Origin: Nitrospinota bacterium
GTDB lineage: Bacteria > Nitrospinota > Nitrospinia > Nitrospinales > VA-1
Assembly (NCBI GenBank): GCA_038108555.1
Contig: JAYNIA010000004.1
Location: forward strand, 640 to 64,639
Length of the DNA stretch: 64,000 nucleotides
Direction of reading: 5' to 3'
Shown here: positions 2,099-18,691 of the stretch, one piece after another
Layout of the letters: every line of letters begins with the position of its first letter
Position numbering within the stretch: the first letter of the stretch is position 1
Made by a program: the position numbers and the translations under genes
The notes under the pieces: generated by a model
Seen by the model: the letters and a program-made list of their open reading frames with translations, nothing else
What the model was told of the DNA's origin: nothing
Database searches by the model: none

Positions 2099-3838
2099 CT
2101 ATTCACCGAGAGCAACCGGGTCCTGCATTTTTAATTTATACAAATTGTAATAAAGATTTCGGTTACTCATTAGTTCATCGTGTTGCCCTGTTTCAACGAT
2201 CCTACCTTTTTCCAGCACAATAATCTGATCTGCATTGTGAATAGTACTCAGACGATGAGCCACAATAAAAGTGGTTCTGTTTTTCATCAACTTTTCCAGT
2301 GCTTCCTGAATTAAAGCTTCTGACCTGTTATCCAGAGAAGATGTCGCTTCATCGAGGACAAGAATTTTCGGGTCTTTTAAAATCGCCCTGGCTATGGCAA
2401 TCCGCTGCCTTTCACCGCCTGAAAGTTTAGTTCCCTTTTCGCCAACAATAGTTTCGTAACCTTTTTCAAGGGCCATTATAAAATCGTGCGCATTCGCTTT
2501 TTTCGCAGCCTCTTCCAGCTCTTTATCCGTTGCATCCAGTTTTCCATAAAGGATATTTTCTCTAACCGTTCCACCAAATAACAATGTCTCTTGAGGTACC
2601 AATGCGATCTGACTCAAAAAACTTTCCCGGTCCAGTTTTCGAATGTCATGTCCGTCCAGTTGGATACTTCCCTGACGCGTATCAAAAAATCGATGCAGCA
2701 GTTTTATGACCGTCGATTTTCCAGCACCACTGGGCCCTACCAAAGCGACAGTTTGACCGGGGTGAACTTTGAAACTAATATCATGTAAAATTTCCGTTTC
2801 CTCCCGATAACCAAAAGAAACATTTTCAAACTGGATATCTCCAGAAATGTTTTCCAAATATATCGGGTTTTCAGGATTATCAATAGCAGGGACCGTATCT
2901 AAAATTTCATAAACCCTTCTTATGGCACCTGAAGCCTCCTGAATCTGCGTATAAAGTCGAACAAATGTACCAATGGGACCTGCCACAATCAGTGCGTAAA
3001 GGAAAAAGGCCGCCAATTCTCCGGGTGTCGTGGCTCCCGACATGACCTGGTAACCTCCATACCAGATCAATACCGCAGAAACCAGAAAGGTCAGGCCGAG
3101 AATGAAAGGGCCAAAAAACGATGAAATCTTTAGCTTGTCCACCGCCCTATCAAATGCGGTTTCAATTTCTTTTGTAAACCGTTCCCTCTCATAAGCCTCG
3201 CGAGTAAAGGATTTTACAATTTTTATTGAAGAGGCCACTTCCTCAAGAACCACTACCGCCTGAGCAACCTGGTCCTGTAATTTTTCCGCAAAATTTCTTA
3301 AACGTTTCCCAAAAACACGGGCAAATATCATCAACGGGGGAAGAATCAACAAGATAAGACCGGTCAGTTTCCAGTTCAAATAGAGAATAATGGCCATCGC
3401 CCCAATCAGGGTGATACTTTGTCTTAATAATGCAACGGGAATGGAAACCAATGCGTTTTGAATGACTGAGATATCGTTGTTCATCCGCGAAAGAATTTCC
3501 CCAACCCGGCGTTCCTGAAAAAACCGCAAGGACAATGATTGAATGTGGGAAAAAAATTCAATCCGAAAATCGGTGGTCATTCTGTGGCCGACAAACCCAA
3601 AAATATAATTATGGGTCACAGCAAAAACCGCTTGAAGAAAGATTATGAAAATCAAATCCCATGCAAGACCATCGAGAACCTGGCTATCCTTCAAAACCAC
3701 AACCGCATTGATCATATTTCGAACAATCAAAGGCAAAACCAGATTGACCAGAGACGTCAAAGTCAGACAAATAAATGCAAAAACCAGACTTTTGGTATAG
3801 GGCCTGGCATATTTCAATATTTTTCTAAATTCTTTCAT
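2099..3838 (-). CDS. ABC transporter, fused permease/ATP-binding protein (MsbA/lipid-exporter-like, type I exporter)
   Basis: N-terminal 6-TM domain. Walker A GPSGAGKST, signature LSGGERQR, Walker B ILVLDEATS, H-loop AHRLST. Confidence 0.9.
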   Translation of the reverse strand: MKEFRKILKYARPYTKSLVFAFICLTLTSLVNLVLPLIVRNMINAVVVLKDSQVLDGLAWDLIFIIFLQAVFAVTHNYIFGFVGHRMTTDFRIEFFSHIQSLSLRFFQERRVGEILSRMNNDISVIQNALVSIPVALLRQSITLIGAMAIILYLNWKLTGLILLILPPLMIFARVFGKRLRNFAEKLQDQVAQAVVVLEEVASSIKIVKSFTREAYERERFTKEIETAFDRAVDKLKISSFFGPFILGLTFLVSAVLIWYGGYQVMSGATTPGELAAFFLYALIVAGPIGTFVRLYTQIQEASGAIRRVYEILDTVPAIDNPENPIYLENISGDIQFENVSFGYREETEILHDISFKVHPGQTVALVGPSGAGKSTVIKLLHRFFDTRQGSIQLDGHDIRKLDRESFLSQIALVPQETLLFGGTVRENILYGKLDATDKELEEAAKKANAHDFIMALEKGYETIVGEKGTKLSGGERQRIAIARAILKDPKILVLDEATSSLDNRSEALIQEALEKLMKNRTTFIVAHRLSTIHNADQIIVLEKGRIVETGQHDELMSNRNLYYNLYKLKMQDPVALGE

Positions 3839-4871: not shown

Positions 4872-5432
4872 TTAGCCAACAGCCTGCATAAACCGTTGGG
4901 TAATCTCTTCAGGGGTGTGGGTCACTCGACCGGTGGAGGGGTCAAAACCAGGTTCAACTTTAATCAGCAAAAAGTTGGGACCTGGGGATTCTTTCATTTT
5001 TAAAAATGCGTCTTTAATTTCTTCCTTCTTTTCAACTCTCATTGCATTTTTGTATCCAGAGCTTTTTGCAACTTCTTCCAACTTCACTTGTCCAGAGAGG
5101 GATCTCTGACTTCCGGTGGATTCATAAACCTCATTATCGATAACCACATGGGTAAGATTTTCCGGTGCTTCTGCTGCAATCATCGCCAATGTTCCCATTG
5201 ACATAAGCACATTTCCATCACCGTCAATTATGATGACACTTTTTTCAGGTTTGCACATGGCAACACCCAAACCAATGGAGGAAGCCAGGCCCATTGATCC
5301 GATCATATAGAAATTGGCTTCGCGATCTTTTAAGGCAAACGATTCGCGGCATATAAATCCGTTCGCATGAACCACCGGCTCATCATCTTTGATGAGGGGA
5401 AGCAGTTCCTGAAATGCTTCAGTGCCTTTCAT
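4872..5432 (-). CDS. TPP-dependent decarboxylase, beta subunit (sulfopyruvate decarboxylase ComE / phosphonopyruvate decarboxylase C-terminal-half type)
   Basis: TPP-binding motif IIDGDGNVLMSMGTLAMIA...NE. ATG at 5432 (MKGTEAF) overlaps the alpha-subunit stop by 14 nt; an upstream TTG at 5453 is an alternative start. Confidence 0.8.
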   Translation of the reverse strand: MKGTEAFQELLPLIKDDEPVVHANGFICRESFALKDREANFYMIGSMGLASSIGLGVAMCKPEKSVIIIDGDGNVLMSMGTLAMIAAEAPENLTHVVIDNEVYESTGSQRSLSGQVKLEEVAKSSGYKNAMRVEKKEEIKDAFLKMKESPGPNFLLIKVEPGFDPSTGRVTHTPEEITQRFMQAVG

Positions 5433-5925
5433 CAAATAAACCTTTCTCGACAATTAAAGTGTAGGGCAATTTCTCTTCGAGAATTTTCTTATTTGCCTTT
5501 TGAATAACTTCGTCACAGTTTGTTTCACTAAGAAGGGAATATTCCATTCCAGCGGTTTCCAAAAGCCGCTTATCAATGTCACCCATAATGATATGTTCCG
5601 GAGCATCTTTTCCATCTTTACCCCGCCAACTCATGATCACCAACATGGGAATATGATAAATCAGATTAAGTGAAGTGAATGCATTGAGGCTGTAACCCAA
5701 ACCGGAATTCTGCATAAGTAGAACGGGCTGTGCTCCTGCGAGATAGGCACCTGTGCATAACCCCACTGCTGCATCTTCCCGAACGGCAGGAACATATCGA
5801 GCATCCTGTTGCCCCTCCAACTCATAAATTAATCCGGATAACAAAGAACAGGGAATGCCCGTGAAGAATTTATAATTTTCCTGGATCAAACGATTTATAA
5901 AAGATTGGGATGTGAGGGAGGACAT
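5419..5925 (-). CDS. TPP-dependent decarboxylase, alpha subunit (ComD / phosphonopyruvate decarboxylase N-terminal-half type)
   Basis: FFTGIPCSLLSGL...AVREDAAVGLCTGAYLAG...LMQNSGLG is typical of the pyrimidine-binding half of Ppd/ComD enzymes. Translationally overlapped with the beta subunit. Confidence 0.8.
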   Translation of the reverse strand: MSSLTSQSFINRLIQENYKFFTGIPCSLLSGLIYELEGQQDARYVPAVREDAAVGLCTGAYLAGAQPVLLMQNSGLGYSLNAFTSLNLIYHIPMLVIMSWRGKDGKDAPEHIIMGDIDKRLLETAGMEYSLLSETNCDEVIQKANKKILEEKLPYTLIVEKGLFDERH

Positions 5926-6998: not shown

Positions 6999-9629
6999 TC
7001 AGGAACCTTTCTTTAATACAGCTTGAGCTGCAGCAAGAATGGCAGTGGGTACCCGATAGGGAGAACAACTCACATAATCAAATTTCATTTGATTGAAGAA
7101 ATCAATGGATGCGGGGTCACCGCCATGTTCTCCGCAAACTCCCATGTGGATTTTGGGCTTTGTCTTACGTCCTTTGTCTACAGCAATTTTTACAAGTTGC
7201 CCGAGACCTTCCCTGTCAAATGTCACAAAGGGATCATGTTCAATCAATTCCTGCTCCATATATTGGCGGAGAAACCCACCGGAATCATCGCGGCTCAAGC
7301 CAAGCGCAGTCTGCGTCAGGTCGTTTGTACCAAATGAAAAGAAATCCGCCTCCTTAGCAATTTCATCTGCAGTCAGGGCGGCTCGGGGAAGTTCGATCAT
7401 CGTACCCACTTTAAAATCCAATTTAACCCCTTCTTTCTTTAGAACTTCCGAGGCAACTTCCATAATAAATTCACGCACAATCTTAAATTCATTTACGTTT
7501 CCTACCAGAGGAACCATGATTTCGGGATATACCTTGACTCCTTCTTTCGTCAATTTGCATCCAGCTTCTAAAATTGCACGCACCTGCATTTTATAAATTT
7601 CCGGAAAAGTGATCCCAAGCCGACATCCTCGATGGCCCAACATGGGATTCATTTCACTCATGCTTTCGATTTTCTTGTTCAGTGCACGCCGGGTCATCTT
7701 CATATCTTTGGCCAAACTATTAACTTCGCTAACTTCATGCGGCAAAAATTCATGGAGAGGTGGATCGAGCAATCGCACCGTAACCGGGAGGTCCTCCATC
7801 GCTTTGAAAATTCCAATAAAATCATTTCTTTGGATGGGAAGGAGTTTTTTCAAGGCTTCGCTTCTAACCTTATCATTCTCGGCAAGAATCATTTTGCGAA
7901 CCTGGAAAATGCGTTCTTCATCGAAAAACATGTGCTCAGTTCTGCAAAGCCCAATTCCCTGTGCGCCAAATTCCCTGGCCAATAAAGCGTCATTGGGTGT
8001 ATCGGCATTGGCCCTGATTTGCAAGGTTCGAATGTCTCCTGCCCAGGCAACCATTCTGGAAAATGAACCGGTCACCTTGGATTGGGTCAAGGGAACCATC
8101 CCTTCAATAACCTCACCATTGGTTCCATCCAGAGAAAGTGGAGTCATTTCTTTAAGTTTCACATCTCCCAGGGTGCAGTATTTTCTTTTGCTATTCACCA
8201 CCAACCCTTCCACACCTGACACACAAGGTTTTCCCATAGCCCGGGCCACAACCGCTGCATGGGAAGTCATTCCGCCTTTGGCGGTAATAATTCCCTGGGC
8301 AACATTCATTCCCCGGATATCTTCGGGAGAAGTCTCCATTCGTACGAGAATGGCTTTTTCTTTATTAGCCACCATTTCTTCTGCTGCGGCTGAGGTAAAA
8401 ACAATTTTTCCTGTTGCGGCCCCAGGGGAAGCCCCCAGTCCTTTTCCCAAACGTTTAACTTTGACGGTAGGATCAATCATGGGATGAAAGATCTGACTGA
8501 GCTGATCGGCGGGAATTCTCATTAATGCTTCTTTTTCGTCTATCAAACCTTCATCCACCATATCGACAGCGACTTTGATTGCCGATTCCGCCGTCCTTTT
8601 TCCCGCCCGGGTTTGCAGCAGGTACAATTTATTATTTTCAATGGTGAACTCCATGTCCTGCATATCCCTGTAATGCTTTTCAAGTTTCTGGTAAACACTA
8701 ACCAGGGATTGATAAATTTCCGGCATATCAATTTCAAGTTGTTCAATGGACTCCGGGGTACGAATCCCCGCCACCACATCTTCACCCTGAGCATTGATCA
8801 TGTATTCGCCAAAAAACTTCTTTTCACCGGTCGCCGGGTTGCGGGTAAAAGCAACACCCGTGGCAGAAGTATCTCCCATATTCCCAAAAACCATGGACTG
8901 TACCGTAACGGCAGTTCCCCAATCGTGTGAATACCCGTGCATCTTTCGATAAATAACCGCCCGCTCTGTGTTCCAGGAGTTAAACACCCCTTCAACGGCC
9001 ATTCGCAACTGTTTCATAGGATCATCGGGAAAGTCCTTGTTGGTTTCCCGGGCAACAAGAGCCTTATATTTTTTTATGATCGATTTTAAATCTTTAACCG
9101 AAAACTCTGTATCAACTTTAATGCCTAGCTTTTTCTTCTCTTTATCGAGAATTTCTTCGAATCGTGCGCCGTCAATATGCAAGACCACATTACTGAACAT
9201 GGAAATAAAACGACGGTAAGTATCCATGGCAAACCATTCGTTATCCGTTCTTTCTGCAAGACCTTTCAAACTTTCCTCATTCAAACCCAGGTTCAATACC
9301 GTATCCATCATGCCCGGCATTGAAACCCGAGCACCGGATCGAACCGAGACGAGCAAAGGATTGTCTGAACCACCAAATTTTTTCCCGACGGACTTTTCAA
9401 GGGCTTTTAACTGAGACAAAACCTCATCCCATAACTTGGGAGGCAATTTCTTTTTATTCTTAAAGTAATAAACACAAGCTTCGGTAGAGATCGTGAAGCC
9501 CGGTGGAACATCAATGCCCAGCAAAGCCATTTCAGCAAGGTTGGCACCCTTGCCTCCCAGAATATTTCTCATTTCTGCTTTGCCATGCGTTTTCTTGCCG
9601 GCAAATGCATATACATATTTCTTGGTCAT
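6999..9629 (-). CDS. ppdK: pyruvate, phosphate dikinase
   Basis: 876 aa; N-terminal GGKGANLAEM; phospho-histidine motif GGMTSHAAVVARAMGKPCV; C-terminal PEP-utilising TIM-barrel motifs (GLCRTEHMF, FFSFGTNDLTQ). Confidence 0.95.
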   Translation of the reverse strand: MTKKYVYAFAGKKTHGKAEMRNILGGKGANLAEMALLGIDVPPGFTISTEACVYYFKNKKKLPPKLWDEVLSQLKALEKSVGKKFGGSDNPLLVSVRSGARVSMPGMMDTVLNLGLNEESLKGLAERTDNEWFAMDTYRRFISMFSNVVLHIDGARFEEILDKEKKKLGIKVDTEFSVKDLKSIIKKYKALVARETNKDFPDDPMKQLRMAVEGVFNSWNTERAVIYRKMHGYSHDWGTAVTVQSMVFGNMGDTSATGVAFTRNPATGEKKFFGEYMINAQGEDVVAGIRTPESIEQLEIDMPEIYQSLVSVYQKLEKHYRDMQDMEFTIENNKLYLLQTRAGKRTAESAIKVAVDMVDEGLIDEKEALMRIPADQLSQIFHPMIDPTVKVKRLGKGLGASPGAATGKIVFTSAAAEEMVANKEKAILVRMETSPEDIRGMNVAQGIITAKGGMTSHAAVVARAMGKPCVSGVEGLVVNSKRKYCTLGDVKLKEMTPLSLDGTNGEVIEGMVPLTQSKVTGSFSRMVAWAGDIRTLQIRANADTPNDALLAREFGAQGIGLCRTEHMFFDEERIFQVRKMILAENDKVRSEALKKLLPIQRNDFIGIFKAMEDLPVTVRLLDPPLHEFLPHEVSEVNSLAKDMKMTRRALNKKIESMSEMNPMLGHRGCRLGITFPEIYKMQVRAILEAGCKLTKEGVKVYPEIMVPLVGNVNEFKIVREFIMEVASEVLKKEGVKLDFKVGTMIELPRAALTADEIAKEADFFSFGTNDLTQTALGLSRDDSGGFLRQYMEQELIEHDPFVTFDREGLGQLVKIAVDKGRKTKPKIHMGVCGEHGGDPASIDFFNQMKFDYVSCSPYRVPTAILAAAQAVLKKGS

Positions 9630-9722
9630 AAAATAATTAGCAGTTATTGCTTAAATAAAAGGGTTAATTAATAGGGAGAAAAACTATTATAAAATTTTTT
9701 CAAGCTCCTCCAAATTTCAAAC

Positions 9723-11789
9723 TTATTTCACAACTATTTTTGAAAAATCTGCCAGGCCCGAAAACAGTTCGGAAATATCCCGCAGTAGGCATAATCTGTT
9801 TGTGCAAAGTGCTTGATCATCAACCATGACCATCACATTATCAAAGAAATTATCCACTGCCGGTTTGATTTCCCCCATTTTCTCAAGTGCCTTTGAAAAC
9901 TCTTTCTTCTGGATATGATCTAAAACCGGATTTCGAACTTTTAAGAATGCTTCATACAATTGCTTTTCTGCAGGTTCGTTCAACAAACCTGGATCGATAT
10001 CTCCATCCACTTTCTTATTTAAAATACTGACCACCCGCCGGAAAGCAATGGATAGGGGCTCAAAATAAGGTTGCTTTTTCAAATCAGAAAATGCAACCAC
10101 CTTTGCTTTTACATCAACGATGGAATCCATCCCCGTTGATAAAACACAATCAATGGCATCATAGGGGAAATCTTCTCCACTCAACAGGGATTTGTACCTT
10201 TGGGAAAATAAATCATCCACATGTTTTCTTATTTCCTCCTTTTCCAGCTTGGCCTTATCGCCAATTAGATTGAGGCTGTCCTCAATAAGATTCTGAAAAG
10301 GAAACTGCCATCCGCGATCGAGTATGATTTGTAAAATACCCAGGGCATGTCTCCTTAATCCATAAGGATCTTCCGAACCCGTGGGTATCAGCTTGACAGC
10401 GATGCATCCGACTATGGTATCCAGCTTATCGGCAACAGCAACAACAGCCCCCACATCACTTGAAGGTAATTCGTCTCCCGCAAATGTAGGCCGATAATGC
10501 TCTTTCACTGCCTGTGCCACCTGCGGGTCCTCCCCGGAATGCTCCGCATAATAGCCTCCCATGATCCCCTGCAATTCCGGGAACTCAAACACCATCTGGC
10601 TGACTAAATCCGCCTTACATAAATGGGCCGCACTTCTTACCTGTGGCTCCATAGCGGGACAAACCTGGCTCGCCAGAATTCCGGCAAGATCAGTGACCCG
10701 TGTCGTTTTTTCGTAAATGGTTCCCAGTTTTTTCTGAAAAACGACCCCTTTTAAAAGCTCCACAAAATCTTCCAGGTTTTTCTTTCGGTCTTCATCGTAA
10801 AAAAAGCGGGCGTCTTCCAACCGTGCTCGCAGAACACGTTCATTTCCTTTTTGGATTTCCTTCCCTTCACTGGCCGGCATGTTGCTGATGGTAATAAAAC
10901 AGGGGAGAAGCTTGTTTTCCTTATCCCAAACCGGAAAATATTTCTGATGGTATTTCATCGTAATCACCAGAAGCTCCTCCGGCAATTCCAGAAACCGCGA
11001 ATCAAAATCTCCCTTTATCGCTACGGGAAATTCCACCAGGTAATTAACAAGGTTGAGTAATTCTTCATCTTGCTTTATATGGCCCCCTACCTGTCCTGCC
11101 AGTTCCTGGACTTGCTGTAGAATGGATTTTTTCCTCTCACTAGGATCAACCATTAATGAATGCTTTTCACATTCATTTAAATATGATTCAAGACTCTGGA
11201 AATTAAACTTTTCAGGGTTTAAGAAACGATGCCCTCTTGAGTCCATTGCGTTCGCAATTCCGTCAAATTCAAACTCCAACGCTTTCCCATCAAACAGGGC
11301 CGCCACCCAATGCAAGGGTCGCGCAAAGGGACGCGATTTATTCTCCCAACGCATTTTTTTCTGGAAGGGGATTTCATTTATGAATTGCGGCAAGTACTCA
11401 TTTAATAATGAAGACGTGGACCGGCCTTTATTTTCAACCCGGGCACAAACCACTTCACCTTTGGGGGTATCTTTTCGAATAAGATCAGCTACATCAATCC
11501 CCTTTCCTCGGGCAAAACCGATTGCAGCTTTTGTAGGTTGACCCTGATCATCGTAGGCCCTGGAAACGCCCGGCCCCAGGAACTCATCCACTGAATCTTC
11601 CTGCATTTCCATCACCCCTTTGACGGAAGCAACCAACCTCCTTGGAGTCCCCATTATTCTGGGCTCTTCTGCATCAATCCGGTTCTTTGAAAAAAAAGAG
11701 GACAACTCTTTTTTCATGTATTTCAAAGCCGGTTCAACATACCCGGAAGGAATTTCTTCAGATCCTATTTCTAAAAAAAATTCAGGCAT
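9723..11789 (-). CDS. glyS: glycine--tRNA ligase beta subunit
   Basis: MPEFFLEIGSEEIPSGY start typical of GlyS; ~690 aa. The tracked ORF extends 19 codons further upstream, which I consider unlikely to be translated. Confidence 0.9.
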   Translation of the reverse strand: MPEFFLEIGSEEIPSGYVEPALKYMKKELSSFFSKNRIDAEEPRIMGTPRRLVASVKGVMEMQEDSVDEFLGPGVSRAYDDQGQPTKAAIGFARGKGIDVADLIRKDTPKGEVVCARVENKGRSTSSLLNEYLPQFINEIPFQKKMRWENKSRPFARPLHWVAALFDGKALEFEFDGIANAMDSRGHRFLNPEKFNFQSLESYLNECEKHSLMVDPSERKKSILQQVQELAGQVGGHIKQDEELLNLVNYLVEFPVAIKGDFDSRFLELPEELLVITMKYHQKYFPVWDKENKLLPCFITISNMPASEGKEIQKGNERVLRARLEDARFFYDEDRKKNLEDFVELLKGVVFQKKLGTIYEKTTRVTDLAGILASQVCPAMEPQVRSAAHLCKADLVSQMVFEFPELQGIMGGYYAEHSGEDPQVAQAVKEHYRPTFAGDELPSSDVGAVVAVADKLDTIVGCIAVKLIPTGSEDPYGLRRHALGILQIILDRGWQFPFQNLIEDSLNLIGDKAKLEKEEIRKHVDDLFSQRYKSLLSGEDFPYDAIDCVLSTGMDSIVDVKAKVVAFSDLKKQPYFEPLSIAFRRVVSILNKKVDGDIDPGLLNEPAEKQLYEAFLKVRNPVLDHIQKKEFSKALEKMGEIKPAVDNFFDNVMVMVDDQALCTNRLCLLRDISELFSGLADFSKIVVK

Positions 11790-12000
11790 ATAGAACAAAT
11801 ATTTAGACTGTAAAAGTTTCCTGAAATCAAATGAGAAAAATGGCAAAAAGGGGTATTATCGAGCAAAAAATTTCAAAGTCAACCTTCAGAATTATGAAAC
11901 GAATCTTAATTTCCGGTTATTATATTATGATATATTCATAAACTTATGCGATGTTAATCTATCCAGTTTTTCTTTGATCGAAATGTAACGCGAATCACAA

Positions 12001-12207
12001 ATGACAACCATTATTTTAGTCATTATTGCCTTGGCCATTGCCGCCGGAGTCGTATCCAAAATGGTAAAAAAAGACTCCCCGGGGACAAAGGGCTCGAAAT
12101 CGTCTAATGATTCCCAAGAGAAACCCGGAAGACCTAAATTAAGGGATCCCAACCAAGCCAAAAAAGCCAAAGCCATGGTGGATAAAGCCATCCAAATGTC
12201 CCCGTAA
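12001..12207 (+). CDS. small single-pass membrane peptide with Lys-rich tail (68 aa), unknown function
   Basis: N-terminal hydrophobic helix TIILVIIALAIAAGVV, then a K/S/P-rich tail. Stop TAA (12205-12207) directly abuts the ATG of the next gene. No clear SD. A competing antisense ORF at 11925-12224 cannot be excluded. Confidence 0.45.
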   Translation: MTTIILVIIALAIAAGVVSKMVKKDSPGTKGSKSSNDSQEKPGRPKLRDPNQAKKAKAMVDKAIQMSP

Positions 12208-14409
12208 ATGGGCGTGGGAGACATTAAGCTTTATGCACCCCCAAATGAACCGGAACTGTTTATTGGCAGAAAAGAAATATTTAAGGATGTCGTTGCTCGA
12301 ACGGGAAAACCTCCTGTAATGATAAGCTTTAGCGGGCCTCAGGGAATCGGCAAAACCACAATGGCCGTTATGATGATCAAACGGTTCTCTTCACAATTTC
12401 CTGGGGACCAGGTTTTTATGGATATGCGCGGAAGTGACCCGAAAGCCCCTTCCCCGTTCGAAATCATGAGCCGGATAATTACCCGGTTTAAGCCCAATCA
12501 ACCTTTACCGGCAGATACCAAAGCCCTGACGAAACTTTATCGATCTATCCTAAAAAGGCAAAAAGGAATACTCATTCTCGACAACGTTTCAGGCCCCAAA
12601 CAGATAAAACCCCTGATTCCACCTCCCTCCTGGCTTTTTATCATCACCTCCGTAAAAACCCTGAACCTTCCGGGGTTTGTATCCATTAAGCTGGATACTC
12701 TGGACTTTCTGGATTCACACAATATGCTCACCCGGTTGTGCCCCAAGCTAAGTCATGCCATTAAGGATATTTCAAAAATCTGTAAAGATGTTCCCATTGC
12801 CCTTGATTTGACTGGAAAACTGTTTGCAATCAATTCCACAATGGACCCTGAATATTTTGCCAACAAATTTCGAGATGTAAAAAAAAGCCTGGGCCATGGC
12901 GACAACGAAACTGCCGCAACGGGAATCGAATCTTCCCTGAAATTCAGTTATTCCTTACTCCCGGATAAGGCCGCAAGCGTACTTCGAAAATTAACCGTAT
13001 TTCCCGGATCATTTAGCGCCAAAGCAGAATCTTTTGTTTGCGAAGATAATGACAATCTGTCTCTCGTGGGGCTCGTCCAATATGGACTGGTTGAAGTCAA
13101 TGAAAATACAGAGCGTTTTCATCTGCATGATTTGGTAAGAAAATATGTAAAACCCCTGGTTTCAGCCGGGGAACAAGGTATGGCTGAAAGACGATTGGCA
13201 ACGGAGTTTATGAATGCACTTGAAACCGTCAACAAGCTCATGGAAAAAGGAGGAAAACCGGAAACGAAAGGCTTGATGTTCTTCGACCAGGAACTGGACA
13301 ATATCAAAGCGGGCCAGGAATGGAGCCAGAAGAACTGCTCCAAAGATCAAGATGCTGCCAAAGTCTGTAGCGCCTATACAAAAAATGGAGCGGAAATCAT
13401 CGTAAAAAGATTACAACCTGCAGAAACCATTCGCTGGTTTGAAGCCGCCTTATCTGCCGCCAAACAATTGGGAGATAGTGAGGCCGAGCGTATGCACCTT
13501 CTGAGCCTGGGACCGGAATATAACCGGATGAAACAACCTCAAAAAGCCATGGAATTTATGGAACGGGCTCTCAGTCTTTGCAAAAAAGAGGGTGATCACC
13601 AGGGTGAAAAAGTGGCCATCAAACAATTGGGTTTAGCTGCCTTTGCTTTAAAAAATTATAAACGTGCGGTGGAGTTTCTGGAGCAAGATCTCAAATTCAC
13701 AGAAGCTGCCGGTGATAAAGTCGAAGAGTTGAATATTCTTGAAAAACTGGGCACTTCTCACAATCACATCGGGGAATTTCAAAAAGCCGTTGAATATGGA
13801 GAACAGGCTTTTGAACGGGCACAACAAAGCGGCGACAAAATCAAACAGGTTCATCTACTTAATATGTTGGGAGAAACCTGTTTGGGGTTGGAAGAAATGG
13901 ATAAAGCCATCGACTATTTTGAAAACGGCCTGGATTTATCACAAAGAACAAAAGAACGGCCTTTGGAAAATGAGATCACACAAAAATTGAGTGAGATTGC
14001 TGTTAACTCCGGGGATGTGTCAAAAGCCCTGGCCTACCTGGAAAACGGGCTGGCCTCTGCCCGAAAAAACAAGGATGTTCAAGGTGAAGGTGAAATTTTA
14101 ATGCAATTAGGGGATACCCATTTTGAAAATAAAAATAACGACCAGGCCGCAATTTATTTTGAAGATGCTTTAGAACTATCTAAAAAGTCTGGCAACAAAG
14201 AATTGGAAGCAAACGCACTCTGGAAAATCAGTATTGGGTTGGGAAATGAGGATAGATTTGTTGAAGCCAGTGAGAAAGCCAATGAGGCTTTAATGATTTA
14301 TGAAGAAATTCAGCACCCGGATGTTATGACGGTGCGAACTCAAATCAGGAAGTGGTCTAGTGGCGGTGGAGGCTCCCCCGTACCTGATAATACAAACTCA
14401 CCCGGTTAG
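12208..14409 (+). CDS. STAND NTPase: NB-ARC-type P-loop domain plus C-terminal TPR array; no N-terminal effector domain
   Basis: Walker [10 protein letters not shown], Walker [15 protein letters not shown] (TTR-like), [26 protein letters not shown] (winged-helix segment), HLHDLV (MHD-like). Then ~8-9 TPR-like units (repeating G-D/E-x-x-K/E-A-x-x-x-x-E-x-A/G-L). Confidence 0.85.
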
Positions 14410-15281
14410 GATGTTTTTTTCAATAGTGGAAATTGCATCGCCTCTCTCTGCTGCACATACCCCTCCGCACATAATCGTGCCAGGTTTCGAACCCTCCCAA
14501 TAAAACCGGTTCTTTCTGTAACGCTAATGGCACCCCGGGCATCCAGCAGATTAAAGACGTGGGAACATTTCAAGGTGTAATCGTAAGCAGGAAGAACCAG
14601 TTCTTTTTCCAGTAACTCTTTCGCCTCCGATTCATTCATGTCAAACCATTGAAATAATCTTTTTTTACTCGAAGCCTCAAAGTTATAGCGTGAAAACTGT
14701 TTCTCCGTTTCGAGATGGACATCGCCATATAGTAGGTTTTCATTCCACTTCAGGTCGTAAACGTTTTCCACATTCTGGAGGTACATTGCGATCCGTTCTA
14801 ATCCATAAGTCAGTTCCGCAGTTACGGGTTTTAAATCGATACCCCCTACTTGTTGGAAATACGTGAATTGTGTGATTTCCATTCCATCGAGCCAGACTTC
14901 CCAACCGAGACCCCAGGCACCCAACGTAGGTGACTCCCAATCATCTTCCACAAAACGGATATCATGTTTCATCGGGTCTACACCCAAAGCCGTGAGGCTG
15001 TTTAGGTATTGGTCCTGCACATCCTGAGGAGAGGGTTTAAGGATGGTCTGAAACTGGTAATAATGTTGCAACCGGTTGGGGTTTTCCCCGTATCTGCCAT
15101 CGGTGGGTCGTCGGGAAGGCTCGACATAGGCGGCATTATAGGGTTCGGGACCCAAAACCCTGAAAAAAGTAACGGGATTAAATGTACCGGCACCGACCTC
15201 AATATCATAAGGTTGGTGAATGGCACATTCACGAGAGGCCCAATAGTTTTGCAGATTTAATATGATGTCCTGAAAATACAT
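14406..15281 (-). CDS. glyQ: glycine--tRNA ligase alpha subunit
   Basis: [36 protein letters not shown] is a near-canonical GlyQ N-terminus; 291 aa. Confidence 0.95.
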
Positions 15282-15319
15282 AGCGGATAGGGTTTATCAA
15301 AGAAAAACAAACAAAGCAA

Positions 15320-15342
15320 CCCCCACGGCGAGCCGCCGCAGG
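15320..15342 (+). repeat. partial copy of GC-hairpin repeat module R
   Basis: CCCCCACGGCGAGCCGCCGCAGG resembles GGCGGCG-M-ACCGCCGCAGG of the copies at 21879 and 39359. Confidence 0.35.
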
Positions 15343-15399
15343 CAATAGGTCGGAACCTAAGGCTAAAAGCCTTTATTCAAATAACCCGATGGCAAGGTT

Positions 15400-15753
15400 T
15401 CAAAGAGGAAACTTTAGGTCCTCCCCTGGGCAGGCCTGTTCGATCAAGATATCGACCACTTGTTTGATCGCCTGCACATGTTCTTTTGCAGATGGCATGG
15501 CATCGTAATCCGTTTCCTCCTGATCCAGAGAAATAATTCCTTCTCCAAGGTAATTGCAATAGAAAGCTCCCAGCGGATTGAATTTTTCCAGCGGTTCGTT
15601 TTCCCGACGGGAGTTCACTATGACCATGGCCTGAGAATCTTCCTCTCCGGGGTAAATCTCAAAAGGACCGTTATTCTTCAAACTGTTCTGTTTGCAATAG
15701 GTAAGGATACGATCCATATCCTCAGGTGAAATCGCTTTATAAACGGTATGCAA
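15400..15753 (-). CDS. hypothetical protein (117 aa)
   Basis: ORF co-directional with, and between, the GspB-like gene and glyQ; no motif recognised. Confidence 0.45.
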   Translation of the reverse strand: MHTVYKAISPEDMDRILTYCKQNSLKNNGPFEIYPGEEDSQAMVIVNSRRENEPLEKFNPLGAFYCNYLGEGIISLDQEETDYDAMPSAKEHVQAIKQVVDILIEQACPGEDLKFPL

Positions 15754-15800
15754 GGTTTTCTTCCGAAATTTTAGTGCGAATCTTTTTAAAAGAGCTGACC

Positions 15801-16580
15801 TCAGCCACCGGACTGACCGATTGCCATAAAAACAGATTCCCCTTTATATGCAAAGACAGCTCCTGTTGATTCTATTTTCATAAGAGTGGCGGAATGAATG
15901 GAGTCCCCAATCTTCATTTTTTGATTGTTGGTTCGTGGTGTTGAAACAAAAATGTGATTGGAGGAACTTTCAGGCGAGAAAAATATAATCCCTTTTACTT
16001 TTAACCCGGGAATGGAGCCATGGCTCCTTAGCTTGGAAACTTGAATTTCATCCGGTTCATCCGCTAAGGATTTTGCGGATGCGATCAGCGATTGAATTTC
16101 ATAGATATCCTGTTCCTCAAGTGCAGGGCGCGAAACCTGGGGAACCGGCTTCTTTATTCGCTCAACCACTTTCTCTGGTACTTGAGGCTTTTCTTTTTCT
16201 AAAGCGTAATATTCCTCTTCTGAAACCGCCTCAGGATAAAGTTCCTGTTTTTTTTGTTCTGGAATGTTTGAAAGCGGAATTCCCGGGACCGAATTGGAGT
16301 CTTGCTTCTTTACAGGGGGGGTCTCTTGCAAAAAAACGGGTTGAGGTCGTGGAGCTTGGACGATTTGCCTGTCTTCAGGCTTGCCTTTCCAAAGCCAGGC
16401 AATTGCAATCCCTACCCCGGCAAAAACCAGGGCACCTTTCAAAATATTTTTTCTGGAAAAGAAAGAATCGATATCAAAACTTTCTTCGTCCTGAAGAACC
16501 AGTTCTTTTAAATCGACCTTTTTTTCTAAAACGCTTTTTTCTTCTTCAAGTTTTTTTAGCGTTTTTAAAATCGTGCTCAT
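15801..16580 (-). CDS. GspB/ExeB-like protein (N-terminal membrane anchor, Pro-rich linker, C-terminal T2SSB-like domain)
   Basis: TM segment ALVFAGVGIAIAWLW. C-terminus LKVKGIIFFSPESSSNHIFVSTPRTNNQKMKIGDSIHSATLMKIESTGAVFAYKGESVFMAIG resembles the GspB C-terminal domain. Lies 26 nt downstream of the ExeA-like gene. Confidence 0.5.
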   Translation of the reverse strand: MSTILKTLKKLEEEKSVLEKKVDLKELVLQDEESFDIDSFFSRKNILKGALVFAGVGIAIAWLWKGKPEDRQIVQAPRPQPVFLQETPPVKKQDSNSVPGIPLSNIPEQKKQELYPEAVSEEEYYALEKEKPQVPEKVVERIKKPVPQVSRPALEEQDIYEIQSLIASAKSLADEPDEIQVSKLRSHGSIPGLKVKGIIFFSPESSSNHIFVSTPRTNNQKMKIGDSIHSATLMKIESTGAVFAYKGESVFMAIGQSGG

Positions 16581-16606
16581 TTTCTACGCTCTTAAATGAA
16601 GAAGAA

Positions 16607-18691
16607 TTACCGGGTTACCAGCTCAGGAGTTGAATAAATTTGAAGCAGGTTATATACCAGCATCTTACTATCTGTTTGAAACACTCCATCATCTTTAATG
16701 TTGTTGTTACGCTGGAAGTTTCTTACAGCACGAATTGTTTTCGGCCCATATAAAGGAGCCTCTCTTCCCTGGAAGTAACCTAAAAGGCGAAGGTTTTTTT
16801 GTAACCAGATCGCTTCCTTCCCTTCAAAACCCAGGCCAAGGGAATCGGGAAGATTTTCAAAATCTTTCCAATAAACGATGGCCTTTCGTGTCCACAACGA
16901 ATTGATTATTGAAAGCGGCATTTCAATTTTATCTACAGATCCGAAAACTCCATTGTCTCCTTTTATAGAAGACAAAGACAGATACTTGGTTCCCTGAGCA
17001 TTCGGAAGCGCCATTTCCAACAGGGCAGGATAATTCAGACTCTGCAAACGTTTTATGGTTCCATTCAATTCATATTGAAGTAACTGATTATCATTTGCGA
17101 AGGTTTCCAGATCTTCCTGTGTGTTAAGGTTTTCAGGTTTTATACCCCAGGCTTCAAAAATCCATTTAACCGCTTCAAGCTTACTCTCCATTAAAGTCAG
17201 GCTGGACAAATACGTAACCAGTTTTTCTGAATCGGTAATAATTAATGGACCTTGAACAGCCACTTTTTGTGGAGCAGGTTCAACCACTACCGTTGGTTGT
17301 GGAACGGACTCAGGAACATGGAGTGGGAAACTGGGTGTGACCGTTGCAGAGGAAGCGGAATAATTGATCAACTCACCCGGTGATGACAAGTCGATAGGGT
17401 CTTCCTTGATTAAAGCGGCAATGTCTTTTCCCTGCGGTTTGTTTTCAAAACTGGGTAACGCAAAATAGTTCAAAGCAAAAAATCCGACACCTGCTGCAAT
17501 TGTGGAAGGGATCACCAGTTTCCAGAATTTATTGGACCAGGACTCCAATGGAACGAGGGTTCCAATATCTTTCACAGCTGTTTTTACAATTTCCGGGTCG
17601 ATCTTTTTGGTACTCTCTGTATAAGCGATGAGCAAGGTCCGATCACAAATAACATTGATCATCCGAGGAATGCCGCGTGAAAAACGATAGACCGTTTCAA
17701 CTGCGGGACGGGAGAAGCGCACCTTTCCCTTACCCAAAGCAACGTTTAGTCTGTGCTGAATATAACCCCGGGTTTCTTCCAGATTCAGAGGCAACAACTC
17801 CCATTGAATGGTAATCCGTTGCCGTAACTGGCGAAGCTCCTCCTTGGCCAGCACGTTGTCCAATTCCGGCTGTCCAATGAGAACGATCTGAATTAGTTTT
17901 TCCGTGTCAGTCTCAAGATTGGAAAGTAATCTCAATTGCTCCATTACATTAGGTTGCAGGTCTTGAGCTTCATCAATGATAACCACCACACGATGGCCTT
18001 TGGCCCTTTCTTCAAGTAGAAAGGCATTGAGAACATCGATCAGTTTCTTTTTACTTTTGCTTTTTCCAGGCAAACCCAATTCACTATTGATCGTCTGCAA
18101 CAATTCCAGTTCATTGATAGCGGGATTGAATATGTAAGCTATATTGAAATCCGTTCTTAGCTCCCTAAGAAAGCTTCTGCAGATCATGGTCTTCCCAGTT
18201 CCCACTTCACCAACAATTTTCAGGAAACCATTATTCTCCTGCAAACCATAAACCAGATGCGCCAAAACCTCTTTATGCTTTGGACTTAAATACAAATATT
18301 TTGGATCAGGTGTGAGGTCGAAAGGCTTTTCAGAAAAACCGAAGAAGTCCTGATACACGTTTTGGTGTTTTGGACTTTTTTCGCGTTCCTTGCTGCCAAT
18401 AAATTGAAGAGGACCGGGCTTTACAGGGGCCACCGGCTCGGGACCCTTTTTTACCTTTGCTACAGCATCATAGGCTTCACGCTTATCTTTATTGGAAAGG
18501 GTGTCATAAGCCTCTTGTGCTGCCTCAATTTGCTCTTTCAAGGTTGGCTTGTCTGGCGACTCAGTTTTGCCTTCGGAAGAATCAAACTTGCTTATCAATT
18601 TCTGATAGGCGCGGTCGATCTCCTTTTGATTTGCGTCGCGTTCTACTCCCAATAATTCGTAAAAATCCGGTGATTGAACTTCAGATATCAT
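16607..18691 (-). CDS. ExeA/GspA-type AAA ATPase with N-terminal J-like domain (no HPD), a TM segment and a C-terminal peptidoglycan-binding domain
   Basis: DFYELLGVERDANQKEIDRAYQKLISKFDSS...AYDTLSNKDKREAYD (J-like). FFGFSEKPFDLTPDPKYLYLSPKHKE...GEVGTGKTM (ExeA-type P-loop). VVIIDEAQ (Walker B). TM PSTIAAGVGFFALNYFAL. C-terminus LQKNLRLLGYFQG...TIRAVRNFQRNNNIKDDGVF (PG_binding_1-like). Confidence 0.8.
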   Translation of the reverse strand: MISEVQSPDFYELLGVERDANQKEIDRAYQKLISKFDSSEGKTESPDKPTLKEQIEAAQEAYDTLSNKDKREAYDAVAKVKKGPEPVAPVKPGPLQFIGSKEREKSPKHQNVYQDFFGFSEKPFDLTPDPKYLYLSPKHKEVLAHLVYGLQENNGFLKIVGEVGTGKTMICRSFLRELRTDFNIAYIFNPAINELELLQTINSELGLPGKSKSKKKLIDVLNAFLLEERAKGHRVVVIIDEAQDLQPNVMEQLRLLSNLETDTEKLIQIVLIGQPELDNVLAKEELRQLRQRITIQWELLPLNLEETRGYIQHRLNVALGKGKVRFSRPAVETVYRFSRGIPRMINVICDRTLLIAYTESTKKIDPEIVKTAVKDIGTLVPLESWSNKFWKLVIPSTIAAGVGFFALNYFALPSFENKPQGKDIAALIKEDPIDLSSPGELINYSASSATVTPSFPLHVPESVPQPTVVVEPAPQKVAVQGPLIITDSEKLVTYLSSLTLMESKLEAVKWIFEAWGIKPENLNTQEDLETFANDNQLLQYELNGTIKRLQSLNYPALLEMALPNAQGTKYLSLSSIKGDNGVFGSVDKIEMPLSIINSLWTRKAIVYWKDFENLPDSLGLGFEGKEAIWLQKNLRLLGYFQGREAPLYGPKTIRAVRNFQRNNNIKDDGVFQTDSKMLVYNLLQIYSTPELVTR

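What the first reader, a model, noticed from the sequence alone, without database searches (positions are those of the whole stretch)
11790..14409. glyQ-glyS pair split by a 2.6-kb opposite-strand insert carrying an effector-less NB-ARC/TPR STAND NTPase
glyQ (14406-15281) and glyS (9723-11789) are both on the minus strand in the usual alpha-then-beta order. In bacteria with the two-subunit GlyRS these genes normally abut or overlap. Here they are separated by 2.6 kb holding two plus-strand ORFs: a 68-aa membrane peptide and a 733-aa STAND NTPase. The NTPase shows [22 protein letters not shown], an FPGSF winged-helix segment, an HLHDLV MHD-like motif and ~8-9 TPR units. Its stop overlaps the glyQ stop by 4 nt, so the insert fills the junction exactly. 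Read-through from glyQ would be antisense to the insert. NB-ARC/TPR STAND proteins are the chassis of bacterial NLR-like (Avs-type) immune sensors and of signalling ATPases. This one has no N-terminal effector domain; the P-loop starts near residue 43. This is my best candidate in the window for an undescribed sensor module.
Basis: partly seen in the sequence, partly recalled or inferred. Interest (0 to 1): 0.7.

Follow-up and report, generated by a model that had tools for sequence, protein, structure and literature searches.

The report
Broken membrane-anchored STAND ATPase between glyQ/glyS
The 2.6-kb "insert" between the two glycyl-tRNA synthetase genes is one old, vertically inherited Nitrospinota gene for a membrane-anchored NB-ARC/TPR switch ATPase, cut in two in this genome by a single stop codon; it is often lost in relatives and nothing here shows it to be a new immune module.

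Summary
The sequence description holds: glyS (9723-11789, -), glyQ (14406-15281, -), two plus-strand ORFs between them, all quoted motifs, about 8.5 TPRs and a 4-nt overlap of the convergent stops. The interpretation needs three corrections.

1. The 68-aa "peptide" and the 733-aa NTPase are in one frame, separated only by TAA (12205-12207). All 24 intact orthologues are single 730-870-aa proteins with an N-terminal transmembrane helix. The six closest relatives have GAA-ATG where the window has TAA-ATG. So the protein is ancestrally membrane-anchored, not "effector-less" plus a partner peptide.

2. It is not a recent insert. The gene sits divergent from glyS in every major Nitrospinota branch sampled. 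It co-diverges with glyS (Spearman 0.91) and is under purifying selection (ω about 0.04-0.11). It has been deleted about six times, leaving remnants. Outgroup phyla have glyQ abutting glyS.

3. Nothing ties it to defence: no specific PADLOC match, no defence neighbours, no viral or mobile relatives.

Its fold matches the TPR-sensor STAND PH0952 and Apaf-1; its NOD is closest to AfsR. The most likely function is a ligand-gated, nucleotide-dependent oligomerising switch at the inner membrane, disabled or untethered here. Interest is modest.

The parts
9723..11789 (-). glyS, glycine--tRNA ligase beta subunit (688 aa, ATG at 11789)
   Evidence: TIGR00211 817 bits against a cutoff of 300; Pfam tRNA_synt_2f 677 bits.
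11790..12000 (.). Divergent intergenic region between glyS and the STAND gene, with conserved promoter-like blocks
   Evidence: The 'TTGACTTT..GCTCGATAATAC' block and the 'GAATATATCATAATATAAT' block are conserved in the window, L010, L020, L017 and L016. No Rfam element was found.
11855..11882 (-). Candidate glyS promoter: TTGACT, 16 nt, GATAAT
   Evidence: Matches 10 of 12 consensus positions and is conserved in five close relatives. The region-wide count of such sites is not above chance, so this rests on position and conservation. Inferred, not shown.
12001..12204 (+). N-terminal fragment of the STAND gene (68 aa): TM helix (about 12004-12060), basic Ser/Lys-rich linker, juxtamembrane helix '...KAKAMVDKAIQMSP'
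   Evidence: Kyte-Doolittle maximum 2.68 over 19 residues. Collinear with residues 1-68 of the 795-806-aa orthologues.
12205..12207 (+). In-frame TAA that splits the gene; the ancestral codon is GAA (Glu)
   Evidence: All six closest relatives have GAA ATG here. The Logan assembly is identical. TAA is the commonest stop codon in the window, 18 of 32 long ORFs.
12208..14409 (+). C-terminal fragment (733 aa): pre-NOD segment, NB-ARC NOD, arm and TPR sensor
12310..12702 (+). Nucleotide-binding domain (residues about 35-165): P-loop G43-T51 (12334-12360), Walker B I120-N126 (12565-12585), strand 'FIITS' 142-148
   Evidence: G46, G48, K49 and D125 are invariant across 42 homologues. Strand and helix order comes from the model. 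Matches the AfsR NOD at E = 3e-22.
12703..13161 (+). Helical domain plus winged-helix domain (residues about 166-318), with an MHD-like L306-H307-D308 (13123-13131)
   Evidence: R303 and H307 are invariant. The wing hairpin is E296-298 and E303-305 in the model. This is among the most conserved segments.
13165..14358 (+). Arm (two long helices, residues 320-376) and about 8.5 TPRs (residues 381-717), the presumed sensor
   Evidence: Model. TPR_12 121 bits. Foldseek matches PH0952 over the full length and the LGN TPR array. The C-terminal TPRs diverge fastest.
14406..14409 (.). Four-nucleotide overlap of the convergent STAND and glyQ ORF ends
   Evidence: Sequence. The same overlap occurs in L001 and L002. 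L003 and L005 have gaps of 5-12 nt.
14406..15281 (-). glyQ, glycine--tRNA ligase alpha subunit (291 aa)
   Evidence: TIGR00388 493.9 bits against a cutoff of 361; Pfam tRNA-synt_2e 500 bits.

Best explanation
Shown: positions 12001-14409 are a single ancestral gene. It encodes a roughly 800-aa protein with an N-terminal transmembrane anchor, a disordered basic linker, an NB-ARC nucleotide-binding oligomerisation domain and a TPR sensor. It was fixed early in Nitrospinota at a site divergent from glyS, which split the ancestral glyQS pair. It has since been inherited vertically under purifying selection and deleted repeatedly. In this genome a single G-to-T change (GAA to TAA) separates the 68-aa anchor from the 733-aa NTPase-sensor. 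Inferred: the intact protein is a STAND switch tethered to the cytoplasmic face of the inner membrane, with the N-terminus out and the lysine-rich segment inside. At rest it would be a closed, ADP-bound monomer, autoinhibited by arm and TPR contacts as in PH0952 and MalT. A ligand bound by the TPR superhelix would release this, allow nucleotide exchange and drive oligomerisation, clustering the anchors and juxtamembrane segments at the membrane as the output. Its role is more likely lineage-specific signalling or scaffolding than phage defence. The window's copy is either freshly inactivated or, through reinitiation at the ATG right after the TAA, makes an untethered NTPase. glyS is transcribed from its own promoter in the 211-nt divergent intergenic region.
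For: One gene: the two ORFs share a frame with a single TAA between them. All 24 intact orthologues in GTDB genomes are single ORFs that start with a hydrophobic helix. The closest relatives have GAA ATG at the stop position. Ancient and vertical: the same glyS/STAND/glyQ order and wider synteny occur at 45-84% identity. The gene is present in all major Nitrospinota branches on the glyS tree. STAND and glyS distances correlate at Spearman 0.91. Outgroups have glyQ abutting glyS. Loss: remnants survive in L015, L034, L056 and L028/L050, and L011-13 carry a clean deletion down to a 12-nt glyS leader. Constraint: omega 0.04-0.11, similar to glyS, with no rate acceleration in the window's copy. 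STAND switch: P-loop, Walker B Asp and MHD His are invariant. The model has pLDDT 91. The best structural match is PH0952 (6mfv, E = 3e-15, full length), then Apaf-1 and CED-4, and the AfsR NOD matches at E = 3e-22. The autoinhibition and oligomerisation model comes from PMC6468293. Not defence by current criteria: with the criteria. glyS promoter.
Against: No ligand, partner or output is identified, so the mechanism rests on analogy with characterised STANDs. About six independent losses show the gene is dispensable, which also fits an accessory or defence gene. The Walker B is D-N rather than D-D/E, and the usual sensor-1 Arg ('TTR') is replaced by 'TSxK', so ATP hydrolysis may be atypical. 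The topology is predicted only from the positive-inside rule. The NJ tree is not bootstrapped. dS is saturated for most pairs, so omega values are rough. Whether the TAA is fixed in the population was not tested.
Confidence: 0.6

Rival explanations
1. It is an anti-phage, abortive-infection-type NLR-like sensor whose effector is the N-terminal transmembrane helix. The TPR domain binds a phage protein, the protein oligomerises, and the clustered helices damage the membrane, like a minimal resistosome. The window's stop codon would then disarm it.
For: More distant homologues of the same NOD-TPR chassis carry conflict-type N-termini: DUF4062, TIR/SEFIR, Death-like and trypsin-like. TM modules are listed among the domains of bacterial STAND/NACHT proteins in the defence literature. 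Repeated loss and faster divergence of the C-terminal TPRs are typical of immune genes. L007 shows a tandem duplication.
Against: The only PADLOC match is a generic TPR model. There are no defence neighbours. The gene has a fixed chromosomal site and co-diverges with glyS rather than moving horizontally. Purifying selection is strong, comparable to a housekeeping gene. The helix is uniformly hydrophobic (TTIILVIIALAIAAGVV) with no polar face for a pore. No viral or plasmid relatives of the clade were found.
Confidence: 0.2
2. The split in this genome is functional. The TAA-ATG junction supports termination-reinitiation, giving a 68-aa membrane peptide and a soluble 733-aa NTPase that still work together or separately. 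This is essentially the first reader's two-component picture, arrived at secondarily.
For: The ATG directly follows the stop, and that Met is ancestral. There is only one lesion and no excess substitutions. An independent assembly shows the same sequence.
Against: This is the only split copy among 25 loci. The full-length orthologue model does not dock the juxtamembrane helix confidently onto the body (pLDDT about 58-65, linker 26-39). Frequent decay and deletion of this gene elsewhere makes early pseudogenisation the simpler reading. Lack of acceleration cannot distinguish a recent lesion from retained function.
Confidence: 0.3
3. The gene is functionally coupled to GlyRS. The conserved divergent pairing with glyS would reflect co-regulation or a role in sensing glycyl-tRNA or translation status.
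For: glyS is the only neighbour conserved with the STAND gene across all Nitrospinota branches, while the other side varies between glyQ, MnmG, an SBP and unknown ORFs. The intergenic blocks are conserved. STAND relatives such as AfsR and MalT are transcription activators.
Against: The protein has no DNA-binding domain. About six lineages lost it while keeping glyS, and three of them re-formed a tight glyQS pair. No T-box or other RNA element was found. The linkage can be a frozen accident of the original insertion.
Confidence: 0.07
4. It is a recently acquired mobile or island-borne insert, as the finding's title implies.
For: Outgroups and some close relatives have glyQ next to glyS.
Against: The STAND-less relatives carry remnants of the gene. 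STAND divergence tracks glyS divergence. GC content is similar to the flanks. There are no flanking repeats. No viral relatives were found and plasmid hits are only distant.
Confidence: 0.03

Closest known systems
PH0952 of Pyrococcus horikoshii and MalT (STAND ATPases with a TPR sensor; PDB 6mfv; Lisa et al. 2019, PMC6468293)
   Same: NOD, arm and TPR-sensor order. This is the best full-length structural match (Foldseek E = 3e-15, 697 aligned columns). It gives the likely working model: an ADP-bound closed monomer autoinhibited by arm and sensor contacts, with inducer-triggered multimerisation.
   Different: Only 16% identity. MalT has a C-terminal LuxR-type DNA-binding domain, and neither protein has an N-terminal transmembrane anchor. 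The output here is unknown.
AfsR / SARP-family NB-ARC-TPR regulators of Streptomyces (PDB 8k60, 8jke)
   Same: Closest solved NOD by sequence (E = 3e-22 over residues 32-322). Same D-N type Walker B. NCBIfam AfsR partial hit of 136.7 bits.
   Different: AfsR has an N-terminal SARP DNA-binding module (Trans_reg_C plus BTAD), which is absent here. The score is far below the 1430-bit family cutoff. This protein has a membrane anchor instead.
Apaf-1 / CED-4 / plant NLR NB-ARC proteins (AP-ATPase clade)
   Same: NBD-HD1-WHD fold with P-loop, Walker B and an MHD-like His. Foldseek matches Apaf-1 at E = 1e-8, TMq 0.44. Pfam NB-ARC is just above threshold.
   Different: The sensor is TPR rather than WD40 or LRR. 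There is no CARD, CC or TIR effector domain. The protein is bacterial and membrane-tethered.
Avs / bNACHT antiviral STANDs (Gao 2022; Kibby 2023; Lee et al. 2026, PMC13581612)
   Same: Single-gene STAND with a repeat sensor. Some members of those families list TM modules.
   Different: No match to any Avs model in PADLOC. No enzymatic effector and no defence-island context. Inheritance is vertical at a housekeeping locus.

Membership tests
STAND NTPase, AP-ATPase / NB-ARC clade | Walker A P-loop GxxxxGK[ST] | tested here: met
   GPQGIGKTT at residues 43-51; G46, G48 and K49 are invariant in 42 homologues.
STAND NTPase, AP-ATPase / NB-ARC clade | Walker B hhhhD[D/E] | tested here: inconclusive
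   ILILDN: D125 is invariant but the second acidic residue is Asn, as in AfsR-like proteins. The catalytic consequence is unknown.
STAND NTPase, AP-ATPase / NB-ARC clade | NBD-HD1-WHD fold with an MHD-type His | tested here: met
   Model pLDDT 91. Foldseek matches to Apaf-1, CED-4 and PH0952. H307 in 'LHD' is invariant.
STAND NTPase, AP-ATPase / NB-ARC clade | Pfam NB-ARC (PF00931) above the gathering score | tested here: met
   23.7 bits against 23.5, only marginal. Supported by the AfsR NOD match at E = 3e-22.
STAND NTPase, AP-ATPase / NB-ARC clade | Sensor-1 Arg in the 'TTR' motif after strand 4 | tested here: not met
   The sequence is 'IITSVK' or 'VTSTK'. T147 is invariant and S148 nearly so, but Arg is replaced and a Lys follows one position later.
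Avs-type antiviral STAND | Match to an Avs or other defence STAND profile | tested here: not met
   PADLOC gives only a generic TPR model (73.9 bits) and weak P-loop hits.
Avs-type antiviral STAND | N-terminal defence effector domain (nuclease, protease, Sir2, TIR and others) | tested here: not met
   Pfam and NCBIfam find none. The ancestral N-terminus is a TM helix plus linker.
Avs-type antiviral STAND | Defence-island genomic context | tested here: not met
   The neighbours are glyQ, glyS, ppdK, an epimerase, an ExeA-like AAA protein and an FG-GAP protein. PADLOC gives only generic ATPase cross-hits. The same neighbours occur in relatives.
Avs-type antiviral STAND | Activation by a phage protein; protection against phage | not testable with these tools
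   Needs expression and phage challenge or co-expression screens.
AfsR / SARP regulator | N-terminal SARP DNA-binding module (Trans_reg_C plus BTAD) | tested here: not met
   No such Pfam hit. NF053617 scores 136.7 bits against a 1430 cutoff and covers only the NOD.
MalT / PH0952-type TPR STAND | NOD, arm and TPR sensor in a closed arrangement | tested here: met
   Foldseek to 6mfv at E = 3e-15 over 697 columns. TPR_MalT scores 38.9 bits, below its 45-bit cutoff.
MalT / PH0952-type TPR STAND | C-terminal LuxR-type HTH (MalT) | tested here: not met
   The protein ends after the TPR array with a short disordered tail.
Two-subunit GlyRS (glyQ and glyS) | Equivalog-level matches for both subunits | tested here: met
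   glyQ 493.9 bits (cutoff 361) and glyS 817 bits (cutoff 300).
Mobile genetic element or genomic island | Flanking repeats, integrase or transposase, composition shift, or relatives on phages or plasmids | tested here: not met
   Only short chance repeats. GC content is like the flanks. No viral relatives. Plasmid hits are below 27% identity.

The most novel reading that the evidence does not exclude
The intact protein is a minimal, phylum-wide 'resistosome-like' device. It would be an NLR-type switch whose only output module is its own N-terminal transmembrane helix, so that ligand-triggered oligomerisation acts directly on the membrane (permeabilisation or signalling). It would have been kept at one chromosomal site for the whole history of Nitrospinota and repeatedly discarded in streamlined lineages.
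Probability: 0.12. Interest if true: 0.7.

Novelty: new variant of a known kind. Interest (0 to 1): 0.3.

Why it matters
If the reading is right, the scientific value is modest but real in three ways.

First, it defines a phylum-restricted clade of NB-ARC/TPR STAND proteins whose N-terminal module is just a membrane anchor. None of the characterised relatives I compared (AfsR, MalT/PH0952, Apaf-1, Avs) has that architecture.

Second, it is a clean natural series for studying how a non-essential STAND gene decays. The series runs from a nonsense mutation (this window), to an internally deleted pseudogene (L015), to 3' remnants (L034, L056, L028/L050), to a clean deletion that re-forms a glyQS operon (L011-13).

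Third, it shows that a gene can split an essential two-subunit enzyme operon for a very long time once the downstream gene acquires its own promoter.

It also carries a practical warning. Annotation pipelines call the anchor-less 733-aa ORF here and choose an internal start in some orthologues, for example P0025 (723 aa) against a 781-aa ORF in L024. That hides the membrane anchor and makes the protein look "effector-less".

Tried and rejected
- **RNA elements.** An Rfam scan of 9000-17000 at E <= 1 found no T-box or other element upstream of glyS or glyQ, only a chance lncRNA hit at 19 bits.
- **Defence profiles.** PADLOC on both ORFs and ten neighbours gave nothing specific.
- **Mobile origin.** The viral-contig scan found no relatives. 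The plasmid search found only remote Streptomyces-type homologues. The repeat search found only short chance matches.
- **Antisense ORF.** The 99-aa ORF at 11925-12224 (an 88-aa version was called in the Logan contig) is rejected as spurious. It lies opposite the conserved N-terminal coding region of the STAND gene and has no Pfam hit.
- **Upstream glyS start.** The TTG start at 11846 (707 aa) is rejected. Homologues and TIGR00211 align from the ATG at 11789.
- **Docking of the juxtamembrane helix.** The full-length orthologue model was meant to test whether this helix docks on the body, which would allow the split halves to re-associate. It was inconclusive, with pLDDT about 60.
- **Dating the stop codon.** dN/dS cannot date it because dS is saturated (above 1) for most pairs. 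The singleton-substitution count for glyS in the same call looked inconsistent with the pairwise distances, so I did not use it.
- **Paralogue.** P0047 (DUF4062 N-terminus, 35% identity) lies in an unrelated context and is treated as a paralogue.
- **Literature.** Searches found nothing on this Nitrospinota protein or on a split glyQ/glyS pair.
- **Not run.** The search of protein representatives was not used, because it returns neither taxonomy nor genomic context.
Full report
OBSERVATION. glyS lies at 9723-11789 and glyQ at 14406-15281, both on the minus strand. Both score far above their NCBIfam equivalog cutoffs: 817 bits against 300 and 493.9 against 361. Two plus-strand ORFs lie between them, 12001-12207 (68 aa) and 12208-14409 (733 aa). 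The long ORF matches Pfam NB-ARC only marginally (23.7 bits against a 23.5 cutoff) and TPR_12 strongly (121 bits). Every quoted motif is present. The convergent STAND and glyQ ORFs overlap by 4 nt. GC content does not differ from the flanks.

ONE GENE, NOT TWO. The two plus-strand ORFs share a reading frame and are separated only by TAA at 12205-12207, which is followed directly by ATG. A search of 5.8 billion proteins found an identical Nitrospinota MAG protein and about 45 orthologues at 45-84% identity. Those called at full length are 776-806 aa and begin 'MTTIILVI...'. They read '...AIQMSPEMGVGD...' where the window reads '...AIQMSP*MGVGD...'.

In 80 glyS-anchored loci from GTDB species genomes, all 24 intact orthologues are single ORFs of 730-870 aa. 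Each starts with a strongly hydrophobic helix, with a Kyte-Doolittle maximum of 1.8-3.2. The window is the only locus with an internal stop.

At the DNA level, all six closest relatives have GAA ATG where the window has TAA ATG, a single G-to-T change. TAA ends 18 of the 32 long ORFs in the window, including glyQ, so recoding is not an issue. An independent Logan assembly of run SRR26337569 is 100% identical across the junction, so the stop is not an artefact of one assembler. The "membrane peptide" is therefore the detached N-terminal anchor of the NTPase. The protein is ancestrally membrane-anchored, not "effector-less".

NOT A RECENT INSERT. Contigs carrying orthologues at 83%, 48% and 45% identity show the same local order of glyS(-), STAND(+), glyQ(-). 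They also share the wider synteny: epimerase, ppdK, glyS, STAND, glyQ, small ORFs, a DnaJ-AAA-PG_binding protein, yacG and an FG-GAP protein.

I probed GTDB genomes with glyS and classified the loci by tblastn:
- Outgroup phyla (Dadabacteria, Thermodesulfobacteriota, Spirochaetia, Caloranaerobacter) have glyQ abutting glyS.
- Within Nitrospinota the STAND gene lies divergent from glyS in every major branch of a glyS NJ tree.
- STAND-less loci are nested inside STAND-bearing clades, which implies about six independent losses. The tree is unbootstrapped, so that number is approximate.

The losses are real deletions, because remnants survive:
- L015 retains residues of about 205-299 and 586-798, with frameshifts.
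- L056 and L034 retain the last 75-105 codons.
- L028 and L050 retain the last 13 codons next to glyQ.
- L011-13 carry a clean deletion that leaves only a 12-nt glyS leader, re-forming a glyQS operon.

STAND and glyS pairwise distances correlate at Spearman 0.91 and Pearson 0.96, and the two tree topologies broadly agree. That indicates vertical descent, with the STAND gene evolving faster. There are no flanking repeats, no viral relatives and only remote plasmid homologues. In deep-branching lineages the gene beyond the STAND gene varies (MnmG, a solute-binding protein, unknown ORFs). The only constant neighbour is the divergent glyS.

SELECTION. Within the closest clade, pairwise omega is about 0.04-0.11 for the STAND gene and 0.04-0.12 for glyS. 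dS is saturated for most pairs, so these values are rough. The window's copy has one lesion only. It shows no rate excess against L010 (Tajima p = 0.47-0.85), and its excess against L020 is mirrored in glyS. The nonsense mutation is therefore either recent or tolerated, and these data cannot tell which.

WHAT THE PROTEIN IS. The AlphaFold2 model of the 733-aa part is confident, with pLDDT 91 and pTM 0.79. In order, it shows:
- an NBD, with the P-loop after strand 1 and Walker B on strand 3;
- a helical domain;
- a winged helix bearing the invariant His307 of an MHD-like 'LHD';
- a two-helix arm;
- about 8.5 TPRs.

Foldseek's best match is PH0952, the archaeal STAND with a TPR sensor (6mfv, E = 3e-15 over 697 columns). 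Next come LGN/Pins for the TPR array and Apaf-1 and CED-4 for the NOD. By sequence, the NOD is closest to Streptomyces AfsR (E = 3e-22). NCBIfam gives only partial, far sub-threshold hits to HaaT, AfsR and FxSxx-TPR.

G46, G48, K49, D125, R303 and H307 are invariant across 42 homologues. Two things are atypical: the Walker B is D-N, and the usual sensor-1 'TTR' is 'TSxK'. The WHD and the arm/first-TPR region are the most conserved parts. The C-terminal TPRs, the linker and the TM helix are the least conserved in sequence, although the anchor's hydrophobic character is always kept.

A full-length orthologue model shows a TM helix, a disordered linker (pLDDT 26-39) and a juxtamembrane helix of uncertain placement (pLDDT about 58-65). 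More distant homologues of the same chassis carry other N-terminal modules: DUF4062, SARP, XRE-HTH, TIR/SEFIR, Death-like and trypsin-like. The TM anchor is specific to the syntenic Nitrospinota clade.

HOW IT MOST LIKELY WORKS (inferred). The lysine-rich segment after the helix predicts an N-out, C-in topology, which puts the NOD and TPR in the cytoplasm. By analogy with PH0952 and MalT (PMC6468293), the resting protein would be a closed, ADP-bound monomer autoinhibited by arm and sensor contacts. Ligand binding in the TPR superhelix would release the NOD for nucleotide exchange and multimerisation. Here that would happen on the inner face of the membrane and cluster the anchors. The output is unknown.

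I favour a lineage-specific signalling or scaffolding role over defence, for four reasons:
- The gene has a fixed site and is inherited vertically under strong constraint.
- It has no defence-type effector domain, no defence neighbours and no PADLOC match.
- By the two criteria used in the 2026 survey of 589 prokaryotic STAND clades, only 198 of which were defence-associated (PMC13581612), it would not qualify.
- The helix is uniformly hydrophobic, which is a poor basis for a pore.

Defence is not excluded. Repeated loss, a faster-evolving sensor, conflict-type relatives and a tandem duplicate in L007 all fit it.

THE glyQ/glyS CONSEQUENCE. With the STAND gene in place, glyS needs its own promoter. 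A TTGACT-16-GATAAT site at 11882 to 11855 on the minus strand matches 10 of 12 consensus positions. It lies in a block conserved across five close relatives, and a second conserved AT-rich block faces the STAND gene. The convergent ends leave no room for a terminator, so glyQ transcription probably runs antisense into the STAND 3' end. That is inference only.

STATE OF THE WINDOW'S COPY. Three readings remain open:
- an early pseudogene, which I favour because decay and deletion of this gene are common elsewhere;
- a tolerated split that makes an untethered NTPase by reinitiation at the adjacent ancestral ATG;
- a population variant.

VERDICT. This is a previously uncharacterised, phylum-restricted variant of a well-known protein kind, a membrane-anchored NB-ARC/TPR STAND ATPase. 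It is caught here at the first step of a decay path that relatives have completed several times. Interest is modest.

Noticed in passing
window 16607-18691 (-), 15801-16580 (-), 15400-15753 (-): A 694-aa DnaJ + AAA_22/AAA_16 + PG_binding_1 (ExeA-like) protein and two small ORFs with no Pfam match are syntenic with the locus in the close and middle clades. Two independent STAND-less clades (L011-13, and L028/L032/L050, which are complete 2.4-2.9 Mb chromosomes) have also lost the 259-aa and 694-aa genes. Five other STAND-less lineages keep them. This could be genome streamlining or a functional link.
   Followed up: partly
window 6999-9629 (-) with glyS; loci L059-L089: The glyS-ppdK (pyruvate phosphate dikinase) adjacency is conserved well beyond Nitrospinota, in Dadabacteria, Spirochaetia, Thermodesulfobacteriota and Deferribacterales. 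That is an unexpectedly wide linkage for these two genes.
   Followed up: no
L007:6750-7976 (+): In the contig carrying P0045 (35% identity, still divergent from glyS), a second STAND gene follows in tandem. It is 37% identical over the NOD and is cut by the contig end. This is a lineage-specific duplication.
   Followed up: partly
L015:4757-6000; L034:5333-6000; L056:166-571; L028 and L050 gaps: These loci show graded decay of the same gene: an internally deleted and frameshifted pseudogene, 3'-terminal remnants of 75-105 codons, and 13-codon remnants abutting glyQ. The 3' end next to glyQ is what tends to survive.
   Followed up: yes
L024 (JAJDBI010000288.1), protein P0025: The deposited annotation starts this orthologue at an internal Met (723 aa, 'MSSDIGVK...'), while the ORF extends to 781 aa with the TM helix. 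P0009 and P0038 may be the same kind of short call. Annotation often hides the anchor.
   Followed up: partly
window 11925-12224 (-): A 99-aa antisense ORF overlaps the anchor-coding region. The gene caller on the Logan contig called an 88-aa version of it instead of the 68-aa plus-strand ORF. It has no Pfam hit and is probably spurious.
   Followed up: partly
window 4872-5453 (-) and 5419-5925 (-): Separate, overlapping ORFs carry TPP_enzyme_C (193 aa) and TPP_enzyme_N (168 aa). This is the two-subunit layout seen in sulfopyruvate or phosphonopyruvate decarboxylase-type enzymes, next to an NAD-dependent epimerase.
   Followed up: no
window 2099-3838 (-): A 579-aa ABC exporter (ABC_membrane + ABC_tran) gives a 122-bit PADLOC hit to 'mad3'. 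This is most likely generic ABC ATPase similarity rather than a defence gene.
   Followed up: no
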